Shown here: positions 43,907-50,185 of the stretch, one piece after another
How positions within the stretch are numbered: the first letter of the stretch is position 1
How the letters are laid out: every line of letters starts with the position of its first letter
Source: Candidatus Poribacteria bacterium
GTDB lineage: Bacteria; Poribacteria; WGA-4E; WGA-3G
Reading direction: 5' to 3'
DNA: 64,000 nt
NCBI GenBank assembly: GCA_965197475.1
Contig: CBDANF010000003.1
Coordinates: 640,001 to 704,000, forward strand
The notes under the pieces: generated by a model
What the model was told of the DNA's origin: nothing
The model's database searches: none
The model's input: the letters and a program-made list of their open reading frames with translations, nothing else
Position numbers and translations under genes: made by a program

Positions 43907-45085
43907 TTAATCCATTTCCTCTCTTTTTTCATGGAGACTTAGGAGTCGGTACTCTTTCTTGGTGATTTCACCTGTAGTTTCACTTCTTTCAGGCACTTCT
44001 TGAATTTCAGCACTATATTCTTTGCCCAATGTTACATCCACCGTATATTCAAAGTCTTTGTCTACGATGATTCCTTTATAAGGTTTTTCTGGTGTCTTTA
44101 TTTCCAATTTTCTAGTTCGCAGTGATCCACCGATTAACGTGCCAGCAATAGTGTGCTTCAACGGTGCTTCTTCTTGAAATTTCTGCAGTATCTCAATTGC
44201 TTCTTGCATTTGGGAGTTGGATAGATAAACTGTTCCTACTTGACCTGGTTTTGGAGATGTCCAAGTAAACTTGGTGTCTGTTGCAGATTGATTAAGCGAT
44301 TTTAGGAGCTCAGTGTAATACTTAGCAACTTTTGATTTAAGTCCTCCAAGACATTTTCTTAGTTCTGTTTGGTTGTCTCTTGCATTGACAAGTTTTAGGA
44401 ATTCTTCAATTGCATATCCACAATCTGTATATCCGAATAGCCCAAGGTCATTTGTAGGAACAATTCGCATCTTAAATGAACCTGTACCGACTTCATATAA
44501 TGAGAGCCCCATAATATTTTTGATATATTCCATGTTGCCTTTTGATTGAAATATTACAGAACCAATTGCATTAATTACATTTTGAAGGTCTGTGAAAATC
44601 TTGCCCAAGCGAGCTATTGGTGCTTGTGTTTTGGATCCCATAAGGTTAATATCCAATATTTCCGGGTTTACGACTATTAGTAATTCTTCAGAATTACTAA
44701 GCACTGGAGATTTATCTATTTCAAGATCAAGATATTCGCCGGACATTGGAAGCATATCCTCAGAAATCTGATTGGCTTGAATAAAACCTGTCTGGATTGA
44801 TGCATGTTTTTCGTATGGCACCTTTACTTGAATCGCATAAGGATCTTCAGGATGCGCAAATGCGTCGTGAAGGTCGATTGTGCCAGATCGGATAAGGTTA
44901 AGACGTTCAACGGAAACCGTAACACAGAGCCAAGTGAATTGTTGATCGTCTTCAGCAGCAGCTATAACAAGGTATAAATGACCTGCGGCGTTTCTACAGG
45001 AGTAAAGAATAGGTTGATCGTAGTAATCGTAAATTTCTACAATTTCAAGCTTTCCTAACTCTGGAATATTAAGTATATCAACCAT
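43907..45085 (-). CDS. DUF6575-like protein
   Basis: N-terminal EIYDYYDQPILYSCRN...YL...W...VSVERL...G.IDL pattern, recognised from memory as DUF6575-like. Confidence 0.55.
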   Translation of the reverse strand: MVDILNIPELGKLEIVEIYDYYDQPILYSCRNAAGHLYLVIAAAEDDQQFTWLCVTVSVERLNLIRSGTIDLHDAFAHPEDPYAIQVKVPYEKHASIQTGFIQANQISEDMLPMSGEYLDLEIDKSPVLSNSEELLIVVNPEILDINLMGSKTQAPIARLGKIFTDLQNVINAIGSVIFQSKGNMEYIKNIMGLSLYEVGTGSFKMRIVPTNDLGLFGYTDCGYAIEEFLKLVNARDNQTELRKCLGGLKSKVAKYYTELLKSLNQSATDTKFTWTSPKPGQVGTVYLSNSQMQEAIEILQKFQEEAPLKHTIAGTLIGGSLRTRKLEIKTPEKPYKGIIVDKDFEYTVDVTLGKEYSAEIQEVPERSETTGEITKKEYRLLSLHEKREEMD

Positions 45086-45118
45086 TATTGCACCTATTCT
45101 GAATTACTGCTGGCTGCG

Positions 45119-45517
45119 TTATTCATCTATTACCTCAAAAACGAGCCAAGGTTCTGCACCAATAGGTATCCACCATGTAACATGAGATTTCCCCGATGCC
45201 TTTGTCTCTTGAATCATACCAAGCTGCGGATTAAGTTCACCTTTAGCTGTTTTCTTATTTCTTAAGTGCCCATATCTTTTTGTGAGTCGATCAATATCTT
45301 GTAGGTCTGTACAGACAGATACCCCACTGTTTATGGTAGCCGGTTTAGGAAATCTACCTGGGAATTCTTCCCAAGTAGACAAGAAATCCTCTGCTTGTGG
45401 TGGATTGTGTTTTACAAGCCGGTAAACTGTACCAGAGGCGGGTTCAGCTTCCGCAGGTGGACAGTTTTCTGGATAAAAGTCTGGCCATTCCAACTCGGTA
45501 GTCCTTTCGTTTCGCAT
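45119..45517 (-). CDS. small hypothetical protein, possible ADP-ribosyltransferase-like fold
   Basis: WPDFYPENCPP, VYRLV, GVSV, SHVTWW; start could extend to GTG at 45529. Confidence 0.55.
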   Translation of the reverse strand: MRNERTTELEWPDFYPENCPPAEAEPASGTVYRLVKHNPPQAEDFLSTWEEFPGRFPKPATINSGVSVCTDLQDIDRLTKRYGHLRNKKTAKGELNPQLGMIQETKASGKSHVTWWIPIGAEPWLVFEVIDE

Positions 45518-45646
45518 GCTATTGATCACCGAGTGTACGTTTTATAATTTTAACACTTCGATATATTATAACACACTTCATTGTTAAATTACAAATATCA
45601 ATTGTAAGCGCTTGCTAAGTGCACAGAGCCTATAAGTTAGTTACAG

Positions 45647-45767: not shown

Positions 45768-46012
45768 GTTAACTAAAGTTTGGACAATTTTTAGTAAAAT
45801 CTAAAATACATTTTCTTTAGGTTAGCGGCGTTTGTAGTCGCGCAATTCATTGCGCCTTTTACAATTGTAAGTTAAACTTTGTGATACCCATACAGTAAAG
45901 TGAGATCACTTATAGTTTGTATCAAATGACCCCATGAGTTATACTATTAGTATTCGTTAAACTAACGGGTAGATGTATTTGCATCGCCGACACTTTCTTC
46001 ATGGAGGTCAAT

Positions 46013-47695
46013 ATGGACCGTAAGAAGGATACCGCCTACGGTATCAATCGACTGGAATCCAAGAATGCCAGAGCCGCTATTATTCAGAAGATTTCAGCAG
46101 ACTTTAATCTAATGCCTCTCGTTGCTGAAGCCTACTATAAACAGATTTCCACCTACTTTGAACAGCACGCCGATGTGCAACTTACCTCAGGGCAAATCTG
46201 CTATGAGGCAGTCGCCGCTGAGGAACCCGCAGGCAAACACATCGCTTTAGCGAAAAAAATCTCCTGTCGACTCAAGCTCAACGATGTTGAAGCCGACCTT
46301 GAAGTTTTAGCGACTTATGGGCTCGCAGGTCTCAGACGGCATCGGATCCTCCGATTGACCCAAGAAGCTTATGACCAAGAAGCCTTGCTGAGTTATGAGG
46401 ATTTGGCGGTGTTATTAACCACCAGTCCTGCCACCGTCAAACGCGACATCCGAGCGTTGAAGCAGTCCGGCTATTTCGTGATGACGCGCGGGGCGAAACA
46501 CGACATGGGCCCGGGACTGTCTCATAAGACGCAGATTCTCGAGCTGTACTTCAAAGCATACACCTTCACCGAGATTGAGCAAAAGACGAACCACTCCGAA
46601 CGGGCTGTCTACCGCTACTTGAGGGACTTCACACAAGTCGCTACGCTCCATCATCAAGGCTTTCCTAACGCACAGATACGCCTGATCACCCATCTATCTG
46701 ACCGGTTGATCCGCGAGTATCTCTCACTCTATGAGGAATACCAACACACAGATCGCATGACCCAACTCCTTCACCCAGAACCTGAGGACACAAAAAAGGG
46801 GGGACCTCTCATGAGCAAACCTCTAACCCGCACGCAAATCAACGAGAAGAAATTCAGACGCATCAGCGATAAGTCCCTACGACAGTTGCTCATTCACCGC
46901 TTTCTCAATGACTATGGTTATGACAAAGGCGAAGTCACTGCCACCGCCATTGTTGATGATATTCTTAAGACCGTTGAAGACTATTTCGTGATTACCCTTC
47001 CTTTGGAGAAACTCGCCACCGGCGATCAACTCCCGGATGAGCGTTTCTTGAGTTATGGACAACTCGTTTGGATGGCCGTCCCTATTGAAGAGCATCCAGA
47101 AAGAGGAAAGTCCATCGTCAAAACCCGCATGAAACCCATCATCCTGACTTACCTCGCCGCAGAGGATATTGAATCCTTTCGCAACGGTTTCACCTCCCGG
47201 CAATTGCGGATCAATCGCTTGGTCCGCTGGTGTCATCAAGCTTATGACCAAGGGGCATTATTGACACAACTCGACTTGGCAGTTTTGCTCAATGTCTGCG
47301 ATGCCGTTGTCTGTGATTATGTTAATGAATGGCAAAAAACCACTGGAGAACTCTTGCCCACCCGTGGCAATATCCATGACTTATCGGGGGCTATTACCCA
47401 TAAGAAAGAGATCATAACCCTCTATCTTCAAGGACATCTCACCCCCAGGATTGCCGCAAAGACCAAACACTCTAAGGAGGCAGTTGATAGATACATTCGC
47501 GATTATGAGAGCGTCAAAGTCGTTCGGAAAGCAACCGCAGATATTGATAAAATCTCACAGATTACACGACTTTCTAAACGTGTCATCTCTCAATATCTCG
47601 ACCTCATACCGCAGCACCAACTCCAAGCCATAGATGCAGACCTTGCCAATTCAGACTCAAACGATGAAGCCACTCACCAAGGAGAAGCCCAATGA
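46013..47695 (+). CDS. tandem DUF1670-like protein (two homologous halves)
   Basis: GGAGG RBS. Both halves have GQ, AYDQ.ALL...DLAVLL, TRG..HD.....HK and HS..AV.RY.RD motifs; second ATG at 46811. Confidence 0.8.
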   Translation: MDRKKDTAYGINRLESKNARAAIIQKISADFNLMPLVAEAYYKQISTYFEQHADVQLTSGQICYEAVAAEEPAGKHIALAKKISCRLKLNDVEADLEVLATYGLAGLRRHRILRLTQEAYDQEALLSYEDLAVLLTTSPATVKRDIRALKQSGYFVMTRGAKHDMGPGLSHKTQILELYFKAYTFTEIEQKTNHSERAVYRYLRDFTQVATLHHQGFPNAQIRLITHLSDRLIREYLSLYEEYQHTDRMTQLLHPEPEDTKKGGPLMSKPLTRTQINEKKFRRISDKSLRQLLIHRFLNDYGYDKGEVTATAIVDDILKTVEDYFVITLPLEKLATGDQLPDERFLSYGQLVWMAVPIEEHPERGKSIVKTRMKPIILTYLAAEDIESFRNGFTSRQLRINRLVRWCHQAYDQGALLTQLDLAVLLNVCDAVVCDYVNEWQKTTGELLPTRGNIHDLSGAITHKKEIITLYLQGHLTPRIAAKTKHSKEAVDRYIRDYESVKVVRKATADIDKISQITRLSKRVISQYLDLIPQHQLQAIDADLANSDSNDEATHQGEAQ

Positions 47696-47762
47696 GACCC
47701 TAATCCTATGTTCCCGACGAACTTTACTTCGCAAAACCGGGGCAGGTGCCTTGAAAATATGG

Positions 47763-47791
47763 TTGACAACCGCTACCGGTTTTGCTATACT
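47763..47791 (+). promoter_or_regulatory. near-consensus sigma70 promoter inside the element's 3' non-coding region
   Basis: TTGACA-17 bp-TATACT with extended -10 TG. Confidence 0.75.
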
Positions 47792-47922
47792 TTAGACACG
47801 TTTATCGCTAAACGCATCATTTCTCAAAGAGGATGCTCGCGATCCCAACGCAACCCACTCATTAATGATCGCTGGGAAGCCAATAAACATCAACCTTCCA
47901 GCTATCCTATGGTCATTTGATA

Positions 47923-50085
47923 CTATTTCCTGATTACCATCTTCCGCGTAGCGGTGAAATCCCCTGCAGTGAGTGTGTAAAAGTAGATACCACTTGCGAC
48001 AGATTCACCCAACGCATTTTTGCCATCCCAATATGCAGCACGGTTGCGGTGATGATAGAGACCGACAGCTTGATGTCCTAAGTCAAGTGTCCGAACTAAC
48101 TTACCATTTGCAGCATAGATGGAGATGGTAACATCAGTAGGTGCTGCCAACTGATAAGGTATCCACGTTTCAGGATTAAACGGATTCGGATAATTTGGCA
48201 ATAGGGTAGTTTCTTTTGGTGTTAATGCTGCAAGGAGTTGTTCCAAGATGAGAATGCCGCGTTGAAAATCAGGGGTAGTTAGGTTGACTTCCCGGGCTTC
48301 ACGCAACCATCGTTGAACATCGGTAGCAGAGATTGTCTCCTTAAATCCATCCAGTAGGAAGGATAACGATCCGTTGCCAGCAGAAGGTGCTGCTACCATG
48401 TCACCGAATGTTGCGGAGACCATAATTAAATCAAATATATTAACAACCCCGTCCCCGTTGAAATCGCCAACGTTATCACCCTCTTGTCCGAAGTTTGAGG
48501 CAATCACAACAAGGTCTAATATATTGACGACTCCATCTTTGTTAATGTCTCCAGGGAGTATCGGAAATTCTGTTATTTTGGCATATTCTACGCGTAGTTG
48601 CGAAACTGCCCCTATGCTATTGCTCAATTCCACATCTGATAAACTTAAGGTGGAAGTTTTCGCTGCAACAACCTCAAAGGTAACTGTGGCGAGTGTGCCA
48701 GCACCGTTGCTTCCTGCAGCTGTAGACGTGGCAGCGAGTGTCACAGTATTACCTTCAACGACGGGTGCAGCAAAGGTCACACCGCTATGTAGATAGTCGC
48801 CGTTAGCACTCTCCACATAGCGGAGTGCAATGGAATCATAGTTGAGAGTAGCCTTATATCCAACGACATCTGCGCCAGCTTCAATAGTAAGAGCCAGTGT
48901 GAGTCGTTCTCCGACATCCGGTGATACCGTTGGAGATGGAGATAACTTGACAGAAGTCATTGTCGGATCAGTTGGCAGAATCTCAACGACGTAGTCGTAT
49001 ATAGGTCGCGTAAATTTAGTTTTAACTGTGACGAGATTCTGTTGGTTTTGTCCGTTTAAGTTTGCACACCGGATGTGATCACCACGCTTAGCAATAGTGT
49101 CGAATGCCTTCCAAAAAATTTTTCCACCGGCACTGTCCACGACAATATCCCGTAATTGTAAGTAACTACCATTCCTTGTGAGAATCTTTTGTCGGTTTTG
49201 TCCGTTGGGGTCCGCACACCAGATATTAAATGTTCCTGTATCATATTCATATTCTATCCAATAGATTTTATCAGAAGCGTTGTCCACGACAAGGGAGAAT
49301 AGTCCATCTGAAAGATTACCTTCGACAAGAACTTGTTGATTGTGTCCGTTAAGGTCGGCACTCCAAATGGTATCCGAATCCGTAAACCAGTCGTACTCAA
49401 CCCAATACATTTTTCCATTGTTGTTGTTAACAACGAGGTCGGATAGTTCCTCAACTTCATCACCCTTTGTGACAAGGGTTTGTAGGTTTTGTCCGTTGAG
49501 GTCCGCAGACCTGATATTCCCTATTTCTTCGTCCCAATCGTAGTCTGTCCAATATATTTTTCCATTGTTGCTGTCTACAACAAGGTCGTATAGTTCCCCT
49601 CCTGCATTACCTGTGAAGAGGGTTTGTAGGTTTTGTCCGTTGAGGTCCGCAGACCAAATGCCTTTCGTGTATGTGGTGCCCTTATCGTAGTTTGTCCAAT
49701 ATATTTTTCCATTGTTGCTGTCTACAGTAAGATTGAATAGGGATTCATTTTCACTGCCTATGACAAGGTTTTGCTGGTTTTGTCCATCAAAGTCCGCACT
49801 TTGGATACTATAGATTGTCTTATTAGTGTCAGAGGCAATCCAATAGATTTTTTCACCAGCATTGTCCACAACAAGTTCGTTTGCCCTACCCTCCATTGTG
49901 ACAAGGGTTTGTCGGTTTTGCCTATTAAGCTCGTCAGACTCAATGCTATAAGCTGTTCCGTCATCGTTGGCGGCAATCCAATAGATTTTGGAGTCTCCAT
50001 AGGCAACACTTTGGGCAATAACGGCTAACACTGTTAGCACTAAAGAAAACATAAATTTTTTTATATTGAAATTTTGATTTTTCAT
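47923..50085 (-). CDS. secreted protein: YWTD/LDL-receptor-like beta-propeller repeats, cohesin, dockerin and Poribacteria-type C-terminal domain
   Basis: Signal peptide; about 7 KIYW...I.SADLNGQN.Q.LV repeats; GTLATVTFEV; GDINKDGVVNILDLV twice; LLPNYPNPFNPETWIPYQL...TRKMVIRK. Confidence 0.85.
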   Translation of the reverse strand: MKNQNFNIKKFMFSLVLTVLAVIAQSVAYGDSKIYWIAANDDGTAYSIESDELNRQNRQTLVTMEGRANELVVDNAGEKIYWIASDTNKTIYSIQSADFDGQNQQNLVIGSENESLFNLTVDSNNGKIYWTNYDKGTTYTKGIWSADLNGQNLQTLFTGNAGGELYDLVVDSNNGKIYWTDYDWDEEIGNIRSADLNGQNLQTLVTKGDEVEELSDLVVNNNNGKMYWVEYDWFTDSDTIWSADLNGHNQQVLVEGNLSDGLFSLVVDNASDKIYWIEYEYDTGTFNIWCADPNGQNRQKILTRNGSYLQLRDIVVDSAGGKIFWKAFDTIAKRGDHIRCANLNGQNQQNLVTVKTKFTRPIYDYVVEILPTDPTMTSVKLSPSPTVSPDVGERLTLALTIEAGADVVGYKATLNYDSIALRYVESANGDYLHSGVTFAAPVVEGNTVTLAATSTAAGSNGAGTLATVTFEVVAAKTSTLSLSDVELSNSIGAVSQLRVEYAKITEFPILPGDINKDGVVNILDLVVIASNFGQEGDNVGDFNGDGVVNIFDLIMVSATFGDMVAAPSAGNGSLSFLLDGFKETISATDVQRWLREAREVNLTTPDFQRGILILEQLLAALTPKETTLLPNYPNPFNPETWIPYQLAAPTDVTISIYAANGKLVRTLDLGHQAVGLYHHRNRAAYWDGKNALGESVASGIYFYTLTAGDFTATRKMVIRK

Positions 50086-50185
50086 CTGATTTTCCTTTCT
50101 GGTAGTATTTGAGAGGGTATTAACCAAATAATGATGCACAAAAATGCAGTCCCTCTAAACAGCATTGCGTCATAACTAATTTAAA

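What the first reader, a model, noticed from the sequence alone, without database searches (positions are those of the whole stretch)
47731..47923. Promoter-driven, hairpin-rich 3' segment inside the DUF1670 element: candidate element-encoded ncRNA
Seen: after the ORF stop lies TTGACA-17-TATACT (47763-47791) with no RBS-led ORF behind it. It is followed by consecutive stems cgttta/taaacg (47799-47814), gcatc..ctc/gag..gatgc (47814-47836), gcgatc/gatcgc (47839-47872) and gctgg(g)aag/cttccagc (47871-47902), running to the right IR. A 10-bp inverted repeat gcaaaaccgg (47731) / ccggttttgc (47776) overlaps the promoter spacer. Known: IS200/IS605 omegaRNAs and IS110 bridge RNAs are encoded in element non-coding ends. 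Inference: a roughly 125-nt RNA partner or regulator of the protein. Readthrough would be antisense to the adjacent gene. I could not find a match between its loops and the target site.
Basis: partly seen in the sequence, partly recalled or inferred. Interest (0 to 1): 0.75.

Follow-up and report, generated by a model that had tools for sequence, protein, structure and literature searches.

The report
Conserved outward promoter in new IS
A mobile DNA element of sponge-symbiont bacteria carries a strongly conserved promoter that fires outward from its right end, but the short RNA it would make shows no sign of guiding where the element inserts.

Summary
The sequence features are there. TTGACA-17-TATACT (47763-47791, with TG) is 11/12 to consensus. 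Across 42 distinct copies from poribacterial genomes the two hexamers are near invariant (identity 0.99 and 0.96). The spacer (0.68) and upstream non-coding DNA (0.63) drift like third codon positions (0.72). I take it as a real outward promoter, P-out.

The "hairpin-rich RNA" is only partly upheld. Only the last hairpin (47871-47902) is kept in all copies, and by sequence, without covariation. Stem 1 is kept in some lineages. A 33-nt block holding half of stems 2 and 3 is missing in 13 short-form variants.

The guide or partner-RNA reading is not supported. There is no significant match to target or element ends. Relatives (55-64% protein identity) with only 14-22 nt between ORF and right inverted repeat have the same termini and the same target. 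RNA-library contigs hold the region but give no strand or 5' end.

The element is a ~2.0-kb insertion sequence (IS) with two DUF1670 ORFs. It inserts in the last Lys codon of T9SS sorting-domain genes and rebuilds Lys plus stop. I read P-out as a lineage-specific regulatory outward promoter; its function is unproven.

The parts
45912..47926 (+). Whole IS-like element (2015 bp). Inferred termini ATAG...CTAT, flanked by TT (45910-45911) and TT (47927-47928).
   Evidence: 19 full or near-full copies at 92-97% identity in the same genome. Copy-to-copy similarity stops at these points. 62 distinct insertion sites were compared. The exact tip and the 2-bp duplication are inferred, not shown by a matched empty site.
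45919..45931 (+). Left inverted-repeat core GTATCAAATGACC.
   Evidence: I4. The same core is at the ends of relatives at 55-64% protein identity.
46001..47695 (+). 564-aa ORF made of two DUF1670 halves. The likely true start is ATG 46013, behind GGAGG. In this copy ORF-A and ORF-B are fused; in nearly all other copies they are two ORFs in a -1 arrangement.
   Evidence: PF07900 E=1e-122 with two stretches, plus HTH families. Other copies have open frames of about 291 and about 302 aa, this one 585. Junction comparison.
46792..46803 (+). A6 G6 run at the ORF-A/ORF-B boundary. Sibling copies have A6 G5; the extra G fuses the frames.
   Evidence: listing. 35 of 39 variants have at least 6 A followed by G. 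In 34 of 39 the ORF-B ATG is in the -1 frame and overlaps the ORF-A stop.
47731..47785 (+). 10-nt inverted repeat GCAAAACCGG / CCGGTTTTGC bracketing the -35 box.
   Evidence: I22. Kept only in part of the long-form lineage, with no compensating changes.
47763..47791 (+). P-out: -35 TTGACA (47763-47768), 17-nt spacer, TG (47783-47784), -10 TATACT (47786-47791). Predicted start near 47797-47799.
   Evidence: TTGACA in 41 of 42 variants. TGCTATACT in 32 and TGTTATACT in 10. Spacer of 17 nt (24 variants) or 18 nt (18 variants). Mean pairwise identity 0.99 and 0.96 against 0.68 for the spacer. The start point is inferred.
47799..47814 (+). Stem 1 (CGTTTA/TAAACG), a 5'-proximal hairpin.
   Evidence: Two pairs show compensating changes among 25 long forms. 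A different 6-7-bp hairpin (AUGUGC/GCACAU) sits at the same place in 13 of 13 short forms. It is weak or lost in several long forms: 6 of 29 fold better than 95% of shuffles.
47822..47854 (+). 33-nt block absent from the short-form elements.
   Evidence: Anchored alignment of 42 variants. Mean identity of the middle region is 0.56.
47871..47902 (+).
   Evidence: 93.4% of 320 cells paired in 40 variants but no double-sided change, which equals shuffles. Arm identity 0.89 and 0.81, loop 0.83. Absent from distant relatives.
47911..47926 (+). Right inverted repeat GGTCATTTGATAC plus TAT. C47923-T-A is the complement of the neighbour's TAG stop.
   Evidence: the ORF listing places the neighbour's stop at 47923-47925.
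47923..50139 (-). Target gene: a 738-aa secreted-type protein ending ...TATRKMVIRK*, with a T9SS type A sorting domain. Its last Lys codon and stop are rebuilt by the element end.
   Evidence: Pfam FlgD_ig 37.6 bits, also Cohesin, Dockerin and Ldl_recept_b. TIGR04183 40.7 bits against a cut-off of 23. An ortholog at 87% identity in a same-genus genome has no element and ends AAA TAA.

Best explanation
The segment is a lineage-specific regulatory module at the right end of an insertion sequence. Its core is a real sigma-70-type promoter (P-out) that fires away from the element's two DUF1670 genes, towards and across the right inverted repeat.

The transcript is non-coding. It begins near 47798. 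In many copies it carries a 5'-proximal hairpin. It always carries the conserved hairpin 47871-47902.

Every copy sits tail-to-tail against a T9SS sorting-domain gene whose own 3' end it has displaced. P-out transcription therefore runs head-on into, and is antisense to, transcripts entering from that gene. My committed reading is that P-out acts by transcriptional interference or antisense pairing at this junction. That would shield the element's genes from read-in antisense transcription and incidentally affect the neighbour's 3' end. It is not a guide for target choice.

Shown: the promoter consensus and its selective conservation; absence of an ORF; absence of guide-like matches; dispensability of the module for targeting within the family.

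Inferred: that it is transcribed, the start point, the 3' end, and the interference role.

Rough odds: P-out is a functional promoter 0.85; the interference/antisense role specifically about 0.35-0.4.
For: - Promoter: 11/12 to consensus with an extended -10.
- In 67 of 73 loci examined, the promoter pattern is followed by the right repeat within 230 nt. The six without it: three pieces of own-genome copies (L020-L022); one locus whose contig ends inside the gene (L060, contig data); one where I found no right repeat (L070); and one that is only a 29-residue match in an unrelated genome (L073).
- Hexamer identity is 0.99 and 0.96, against spacer 0.68, upstream non-coding DNA 0.63 and third codon positions 0.72 in the same copies.
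- The organism uses this consensus: 655 sites against about 177 expected, of which 19 are P-out copies.
- No frame is open in all variants.
- The module occurs only inside the IS copies: 19 full hits plus one 138-nt partial, nothing else below E=0.1.
- Fixed convergent geometry: 58 of 62 distinct insertion sites abut the last codon of genes ending ...YFYTLTAGDFTATRKMLI.K*.
- The terminal hairpin and its loop are more conserved than neutral sites. Distant relatives lack them, so they are not a family-wide end-binding requirement.
Against: - No 5' end, strand or level of any transcript was obtained. The four RNA libraries laid are assembled contigs that cover the ORF and the non-coding end alike, and DNA carry-over cannot be excluded.
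- No intrinsic terminator on either strand near the junction, so where the RNA ends is unknown.
- The interference role is an argument from geometry only.
- Relatives without the module live at the same kind of site. So the module is not needed for that lifestyle, and its benefit is unproven.
- Structure support is weak. RNAalifold gives -5.98 kcal/mol with a covariation term of -0.54 for 25 long forms. The terminal hairpin shows no covariation. Wobble-pair counts favour the + strand for stem 1 (23 GU against 3 AC) but the opposite for stem 2 (1 against 13).
Confidence: 0.4

Rival explanations
1. A discrete small RNA (about 80-110 nt, ending at the terminal hairpin) acts as a regulator or protein partner of the DUF1670 proteins without being a guide. 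It might titrate the HTH proteins or control transposase synthesis.
For: - The terminal hairpin arms (identity 0.89 and 0.81), its loop (0.83) and the CCACTCAT stretch (0.73) are conserved above the neutral level of 0.72 or less.
- A 5' hairpin is present in 13 of 13 short forms.
- Hairpins without a U tract can end transcripts in some bacteria (recalled, not tested).
Against: - No covariation in the terminal hairpin.
- The middle of the RNA is an indel-prone, fast-evolving stretch (identity 0.56).
- No Rfam match at E up to 1.
- Related elements do without it.
- No RNA 3' end data.
Confidence: 0.2
2. P-out is the promoter that expresses the transposase genes once the two ends are joined (circular or tandem intermediate), as in IS families with junction promoters. 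In the integrated copy its outward activity is a by-product.
For: - P-out points at the right tip.
- The left end has only a weak -35 (TTGTAT) before its TATACT, read. That -10 varies to TAAACT or TACACT in relatives.
- ORF-A has its own GGAGG ribosome site.
- Selection at the level of the element is easy to imagine.
Against: - The promoter is complete and lies about 135 nt inside the end, unlike junction promoters split between the two repeats (recalled feature).
- The conserved hairpin between promoter and tip is unexplained.
- Relatives have no such module.
Confidence: 0.17
3. A guide RNA in the manner of IS110/IS1111 bridge RNA or IS200/IS605 omegaRNA. Loops, or the flank-derived readthrough part, would base-pair with the sorting-domain gene end and direct insertion.
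For: - The element is highly target-specific.
- The RNA lies in the right non-coding end, as in the IS1111 group (PMC11208160, passages read).
- The hairpin loop AATAAACATC resembles the flank consensus (T/A)ATCAACAT(C/T).
Against: - That resemblance is at chance level (P=0.23). The best 20-mer has P=0.065 and lies in the dispensable block.
- No donor-end match (P 0.71-1.00).
- No DEDD or TnpB-type protein.
- Elements with 14-nt and 22-nt non-coding right ends (L087, L088), and one with an unrelated 171-nt end lacking a strong promoter (L084/85/95), have the same termini and the same target: TIGR04183 gene ends, 46.6 and 34.6 bits for two of them.
Confidence: 0.04
4. No RNA function at all. 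The conserved hexamers and the palindrome are DNA sites (protein-binding sites or end-recognition signals of this lineage) that merely look like a promoter and a hairpin.
For: - The terminal hairpin is conserved as sequence with no compensating change.
- The proteins are rich in HTH domains.
- The 10-nt repeat around the -35 could be an operator.
Against: - Two hexamers matching the consensus at 11/12, at a spacing of 17-18 nt, with a TG motif, all invariant while the spacer drifts, is the signature of RNA polymerase recognition.
- The consensus is in wide use in this genome.
Confidence: 0.08

Closest known systems
Outward-directed promoters in IS ends (for example IS10 pOUT, and outward or hybrid promoters of IS1, IS2, IS3, IS5 and ISAba1). 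Recalled; search listing only.
   Same: A sigma-70-type promoter inside a terminal non-coding region fires across the inverted repeat into flanking DNA. It is an element-borne regulatory signal.
   Different: IS10 pOUT makes an RNA antisense to the transposase start. Here the promoter lies 3' of both ORFs and points away from them. The flank is always the antisense strand of one class of gene, so no host gene can be switched on. The transcribed part holds a conserved hairpin.
IS1111-group bridge RNA, encoded in the right non-coding end (Durrant et al. 2024, PMC11208160; passages read).
   Same: A long right non-coding end downstream of the recombinase gene in a strongly target-specific element, with sub-terminal inverted repeats.
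   Different: No DEDD recombinase. No target- or donor-complementary loops above chance. No supported covarying structure. The module is absent from relatives with the same target.
IS200/IS605 omegaRNA (right-end RNA of TnpB/IscB). Recalled; mentioned in the passage.
   Same: A transcript that starts in the 3' part of the element, runs over the right end, and could carry flank sequence.
   Different: No TnpB or IscB gene and no HUH transposase. The element has terminal inverted repeats and a probable 2-bp duplication. No Rfam hit.
Tn7 TnsD-directed insertion at attTn7 behind glmS. Recalled; concerns the target logic of the element, not the RNA.
   Same: Recognition of a conserved coding 3' end, with insertion in fixed orientation that leaves the protein intact.
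   Different: Here the target is a paralogous family (T9SS type A sorting domains). The insertion is inside the last codon, and the element itself supplies the third base of Lys and a TAG stop. The proteins are two DUF1670 paralogs with no recognised catalytic domain.

Membership tests
sigma-70-type bacterial promoter | -35 and -10 hexamers close to TTGACA/TATAAT at 17 +/- 1 nt | tested here: met
   11/12 with TG. Spacer of 17 nt in 24 and 18 nt in 18 of 42 variants.
sigma-70-type bacterial promoter | Hexamers under selection relative to the spacer and neighbouring DNA | tested here: met
   Identity 0.99 and 0.96 against 0.68 (spacer), 0.63 (upstream) and 0.72 (third codon positions).
sigma-70-type bacterial promoter | A mapped transcript 5' end a few bases downstream of the -10 | not testable with these tools
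   All runs offered were assembled contigs. They show no start, end or strand.
IS110/IS1111 bridge RNA | Encoded in a non-coding end of the element | tested here: met
   228-nt right non-coding end, 47696-47923.
IS110/IS1111 bridge RNA | Partner is a DEDD (RuvC-like) plus Tnp-domain recombinase | tested here: not met
   Only DUF1670 and HTH families in Pfam. Nothing in NCBIfam or in PDB sequences.
IS110/IS1111 bridge RNA | Internal loops complementary to target and to donor ends | tested here: not met
   Target matrix: best P=0.23 and 0.065. Donor ends: P 0.71-1.00.
IS110/IS1111 bridge RNA | Conserved, covarying secondary structure | tested here: inconclusive
   4 of 25 pairs have double changes, and 60 of 500 shuffles reach that. 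RNAalifold is weak. The terminal hairpin shows no covariation.
IS110/IS1111 bridge RNA | The RNA goes together with target specificity across the family | tested here: not met
   L087 (14-nt end) and L088 (22-nt end) have the same termini and target.
IS200/IS605 omegaRNA | Adjacent TnpB or IscB nuclease gene whose 3' end overlaps the RNA scaffold | tested here: not met
   No such domain. No Rfam match.
IS10-type antisense control (RNA-OUT) | The outward RNA overlaps the transposase translation start on the opposite strand | tested here: not met
   P-out is on the same strand as the ORFs and downstream of them.
Junction promoter of circle-forming IS (IS3, IS30, IS256, IS110 types) | -35 in one terminal repeat and -10 in the other, assembled only when the ends are joined | tested here: not met
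   Both hexamers lie together, 135-160 nt inside the right tip. The defining feature itself is recalled.
Insertion sequence (the element as a whole) | Multi-copy, terminal inverted repeats, own genes only, variable presence among related genomes, an empty orthologous site | tested here: met
   19 copies. Inverted repeats. PF07900 in 29 of 101 genomes of the phylum. An ortholog without the element. A known transposase catalytic domain was not found.

The most novel reading that the evidence does not exclude
The P-out transcript, with its near-invariant terminal hairpin and loop, is a lineage-specific RNA cofactor or regulator of a transposition system whose two HTH-rich DUF1670 proteins have no recognisable catalytic domain. 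It might be bound by them at the right end to control synapsis or the supply of the frameshift fusion protein. The evidence excludes a role in choosing the target. It does not exclude a role in regulating or assisting the reaction in this lineage.
Probability: 0.1. Interest if true: 0.8.

Novelty: new variant of a known kind. Interest (0 to 1): 0.45.

Why it matters
For the finding itself, an outward promoter in an IS end is a familiar kind of signal, so the RNA idea loses most of its appeal.

What the follow-up exposed is less ordinary:
- This is an undescribed IS family. 'DUF1670' and 'PF07900' return 0 papers in the library searched.
- Its only genes are two paralogous HTH proteins.
- It inserts with single-codon precision into the last Lys codon of T9SS type A sorting-domain genes and rebuilds Lys plus stop.
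- In this genome it occupies 18 of 44 gene ends found with a strict pattern.

If P-out really drives antisense transcription into these genes, a large share of the secreted-protein repertoire of a sponge symbiont is flanked by an element-borne convergent promoter. The family also gives a clean case for asking how a coding-sequence target is read without a guide RNA, and where the catalysis comes from.

Tried and rejected
Guide-RNA tests. I scored every 8-20-nt window of 47798-47923, both orientations, against a weight matrix of 62 right flanks. Nothing was better than shuffles (P 0.065-0.80). The same test against the element's own ends gave P 0.71-1.00. Both used mononucleotide shuffles.

RNA-RNA pairing of the P-out RNA with the ORF-A leader and the ORF-B start (RNA duplexfold). 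The long 'duplexes' are dominated by the trivial complementarity of the two terminal repeats and by unrealistic long-range pairing. I draw nothing from it.

RNA libraries. 14 RNA runs hold part of the stretch. I laid four, one from each of four coded studies. All are contigs, and ORF and non-coding end are both covered. Contig ends at 47763, 47792/47798 and 47927 coincide with points where copies differ, so they are assembly break points, not RNA ends. No joint that goes back from the right end to the left end was among the 10 joints listed, which is no evidence against circles. Two joints (45925 to 47872 and 45946 to 47877) hint at very short derivatives but have short sides (21-37 nt). A scan of the genome found only one short derivative, of 432 bp.

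Small-ORF idea. The 10-codon ORF behind AAAGAGGATG in this copy is not kept, and the block is missing in short forms.

Link between the left-end and right-end palindromes (CGTTAAACTAACG against CGTTTATCGCTAAACG). In other lineages the left one is GTTA-N3-TAAC and the right one differs. I see no co-variation between the two (read from the listing).

Strand test by wobble pairs: mixed.

Origin of the module. No copy outside the IS in this genome. A 20-nt, 85% direct repeat between ORF-B (47574-47593) and the module (47808-47827) (D6) may be chance.

Protein side. Structure prediction could not be run. The ESM Atlas gave only HTH-type leads with scores at or below 0.81. So whether the N-terminal ~110 residues of DUF1670 hold a catalytic fold is open.

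Empty site. The same-genus ortholog (L097) lacks the element, but its downstream DNA is not alignable to the window's left flank. So the 2-bp duplication is inferred from 62 junctions rather than shown.

Supplementary files of papers were not consulted. The supplement tables of PMC11208160 could bear on how short bridge-RNA guides can be.
Full report
**What is in the window**

The finding lies in the right non-coding end of a 2015-bp repeat unit (about 45912-47926). The unit has 13-nt terminal inverted repeats, GTATCAAATGACC / GGTCATTTGATAC. It has one long ORF (46001-47695) made of two DUF1670 (PF07900) halves with several HTH signatures and no other domain. NCBIfam and PDB sequence searches add nothing.

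The same genome holds 19 full or near-full copies at 92-97% identity and one 432-bp deletion derivative. A pattern scan of species-representative genomes gave 51 loci. By record title, 49 are Candidatus or uncultured Poribacteria MAGs, with 67-97% protein identity. PF07900 is found in 29 of 101 genomes sampled from the phylum. So this is a mobile, multi-copy, IS-like element. I found no paper that names DUF1670 or PF07900 (0 papers each).

**The observation**

- TTGACA-17-TATACT at 47763-47791 is 11/12 to consensus and has a TG.
- The 10-nt repeat 47731/47776 is exact.
- The four stems can be read at the stated places.
- The 126-nt RNA from 47798 folds at -27.8 kcal/mol, z -2.78, with 2 of 200 shuffles as good. 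The MFE uses stems 2 and 4, not stems 1 and 3 as drawn.
- Rfam gives nothing at E up to 1.

**Promoter conservation**

In 67 of 73 loci held at that point, the promoter pattern is followed by the right repeat within 230 nt. That gave 42 distinct sequences. The six loci without it are these:
- three pieces of own-genome copies (L020-L022);
- one contig that ends inside the gene (L060, contig data);
- one locus without a detectable right end (L070);
- one unrelated weak hit of 29 residues (L073).

In the anchored alignment:
- the -35 is TTGACA in 41 of 42 variants;
- the extended -10 is TG(C/T)TATACT in 42 of 42;
- the spacing is 17 or 18 nt.

| Segment | Mean pairwise identity |
|---|---|
| -35 hexamer | 0.99 |
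| extended -10 | 0.96 |
| spacer | 0.68 |
| upstream non-coding DNA | 0.63 |

Third codon positions of ORF-B in the same copies stand at 0.72, and first and second positions at 0.95 and 0.97. So the hexamers are held while their surroundings drift at about the neutral rate.

Sites at or above 11/12 number 655 in this genome, against about 177 expected from composition. So the consensus is in real use here. I therefore take P-out as a functional promoter (about 0.85). No reading frame behind it stays open in all variants.

**The RNA**

There are two length classes. Thirteen short-form variants lack a 33-nt block (window 47822-47854). That block removes half of stem 2 and the 5' arm of stem 3.

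- Long forms, RNAalifold: 25 sequences give a weak consensus of -5.98 kcal/mol, with a covariation term of -0.54.
Four of 25 pairs show double changes, a number that 60 of 500 shuffles also reach.
- Stem 1 has two compensated pairs. Stem 3 is poor, at 72.7%.
- Short forms: a different but equally placed 5' hairpin (AUGUGC/GCACAU) plus the terminal hairpin, -15.69 kcal/mol, with no variation in the pairs.
- Folding the first 30 nt of each variant: a better-than-shuffle hairpin in 13 of 13 short forms but only 6 of 29 others.
- Terminal hairpin: paired in 93.4% of 320 cells over 40 variants, but without a single double change, exactly as in shuffles. It is conserved as sequence (arms 0.89 and 0.81, loop 0.83).
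- Wobble-pair counts are mixed.

In short, the structure amounts to one universal hairpin and a 5' hairpin in part of the family. There is no statistical support for a larger fold.

**Expression**

Fourteen RNA runs hold part of the stretch. I laid four, one from each of four coded studies. All are assembled contigs. They contain the ORF and the non-coding end alike and can show neither strand nor ends. The question of a transcript from about 47798 stays open.

**Where the element sits**

This turned out to be the key to the guide question. Copy-to-copy similarity often runs on beyond the right repeat. The reason is that the right flank is nearly always the reverse complement of a paralogous gene end.

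- Of 62 distinct insertion sites, 58 abut genes ending ...(V/I/L)YFY(T/Q)L.AG.F.ATRKM(L/V)I.K*. The other four still end in ...K*.
- The neighbour in the window carries a T9SS type A sorting domain (TIGR04183, 40.7 bits against a cut-off of 23).
- The right junction is always GATAC-TAT-TT. The left flank is (C/T)TA(C/T)TT or TCACTT before ATAGTTTGTATC.
- Read on the gene's strand, the left flank is the original third base of a Lys codon plus a TAA, TAG or TGA stop. The element end supplies a new A plus TAG.

The simplest model is termini ATAG...CTAT, insertion after the second base of the last Lys codon, and a 2-bp duplication. The protein is left unchanged.

A same-genus ortholog of the target gene (87% identity) has no element and ends AAA TAA. 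Its downstream DNA is not alignable to the window's left flank, so the duplication is inferred. With a strict peptide pattern, 18 of 44 such gene ends in this genome are occupied.

**Tests of the guide or partner reading**

1. A weight matrix of the 62 flanks finds no better-than-shuffle match in the RNA. The best 10-mer is the hairpin loop AATAAACATC, P=0.23. The best 20-mer has P=0.065 and lies in the dispensable block.
2. There is no match to the element's own ends.
3. The protein has none of the recombinase or nuclease domains that go with bridge RNAs or omegaRNAs (features of bridge RNAs from passages of PMC11208160).
4. Metagenome relatives include three further lineages with the same terminal repeats, the same ...GATACTAT right tip, and a right flank that is again a sorting-domain-like gene end:
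   - L084/85/95: IYVYRLQAGACSKSKKLIIMR*; TIGR04183 46.6 bits.
   - L087: ...KKAVILK*; TIGR04183 34.6 bits.
   - L088...KKMLLLK*; domain not scanned.

   L087's proteins are 64% (ORF-A) and 55% (ORF-B) identical to the window's. In L087 and L088 only 14 and 22 nt separate the ORF-B stop from the right repeat. L084/85/95 has an unrelated 171-nt end whose best promoter-like site is 9/12.

Target choice and transposition in this family therefore do not need the module. I put the guide reading at about 0.04.

**What the module most likely does**

It is an acquisition of the poribacterial lineage. It is found only inside IS copies and is kept under selection.

Its geometry is fixed. A strong promoter 135-160 nt inside the right tip points at a convergent gene that has been cut off from its own 3' region. 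My committed reading (about 0.35-0.4) is a regulatory outward promoter. Its transcript opposes, or pairs with, read-in transcription from the target gene, which would otherwise be antisense to the element's ORFs.

Rivals:
- a discrete small RNA ending at the terminal hairpin and acting on the DUF1670 proteins or their synthesis (0.2);
- a promoter that serves the transposase genes when the ends are joined (0.17);
- DNA-level sites only (0.08).

None of these can be separated without strand-specific 5' and 3' end data.

**Comparison with known systems**

As a kind, this is an IS outward promoter, which is already known. It has an unusual, fixed antisense setting and a conserved transcribed hairpin. 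It fails the membership tests for bridge RNA, omegaRNA, RNA-OUT and split junction promoters (see the table of features). The element itself looks like an undescribed IS family with Tn7/attTn7-like logic, reading a conserved coding 3' end and leaving the protein intact, but applied to a gene family and at single-codon precision.

**Also seen**

ORF-A and ORF-B are normally separate and in a -1 arrangement behind a conserved A6G-G5 run. 35 of 39 variants have at least 6 A followed by G, and 34 of 39 have ORF-B in the -1 frame. That is the layout of programmed -1 frameshifting in the IS3 and IS1 families (recalled). The window copy has one extra G (G6), which fuses the frames into the 564-aa ORF, the product that a -1 shift would give.

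Noticed in passing
window 47923-47928, and 62 junctions in L001-L071: The element inserts inside the last Lys codon of T9SS type A sorting-domain genes, in one orientation, and rebuilds Lys plus TAG. 58 of 62 distinct sites are such gene ends. 18 of 44 pattern-defined gene ends in this genome are occupied. The same target is used by relatives at 55-64% protein identity.
   Followed up: yes
window 46792-46813: A conserved A6G followed by a G run lies just before the ORF-A stop and ORF-B start, which overlap with ORF-B in the -1 frame. This layout suggests programmed -1 frameshifting. This copy has G6 instead of G5, so ORF-A and ORF-B are fused.
   Followed up: partly
window 46001-47695 (alignment A3): DUF1670 appears to be an N-terminal ~110-residue domain, then a winged HTH, then a second HTH. 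Invariant or near-invariant residues cluster in LP.RG..HD.G...THK and H.....(D)RY. No known catalytic domain was found in an element whose only genes these are. The family is large: 1019 clusters at 50% identity. Some proteins have two or three DUF1670 units.
   Followed up: partly
G000:C3:94120-94551 (outside the window; loci L020/L021): A 432-bp internal-deletion derivative of the element joins about 300 nt of the left end to the last ~150 nt of the right end. The deletion removes the -35 box but keeps the -10 and the hairpins.
   Followed up: partly
window 45936-45970 and the left ends in L023-L071: The left end has its own TATACT (TAAACT or TACACT in some lineages), preceded at 17 nt by TTGTAT inside the left repeat. 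Most lineages also have direct repeats of (C/T)ATGAGTTA, a GTTA-N3-TAAC palindrome, and a conserved AGGTAGATGTATTT.CATC before the GGAGG ribosome site.
   Followed up: no
G000, e.g. C3:945735, 1419833, 2283210, 2588567, 2817477, 2860097, 4023561; C2:99378, 1207963: Another repeat family turned up by chance in the scan for terminal repeats. Identical ~70-nt stretches contain TGTATGTAGGGGATCAAAAGACCCCCTACATGTTTGCAAGCGGATTATTTACA, with a palindromic core, at 10 or more places.
   Followed up: no
window 45925/45946 joined to 47872/47877, in RNA-library contigs of X1 and X3: Contigs join the first 15-35 nt of the left end directly to the last ~50 nt of the right end, the terminal hairpin included. 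These could be miniature derivatives in other strains or assembly artefacts at the inverted repeats. The shorter sides are only 21-37 nt.
   Followed up: no
loci L008 and L012 (own genome): Two copies share the same 50-nt left flank but have different right flanks, one of them not a sorting-domain gene. This suggests recombination between copies or a repeated left-flank sequence.
   Followed up: no
window 43907-45529: Left of the element lie a DUF6575 gene (392 aa, minus strand) and a 136-aa ORF with no family. Not examined further.
   Followed up: no
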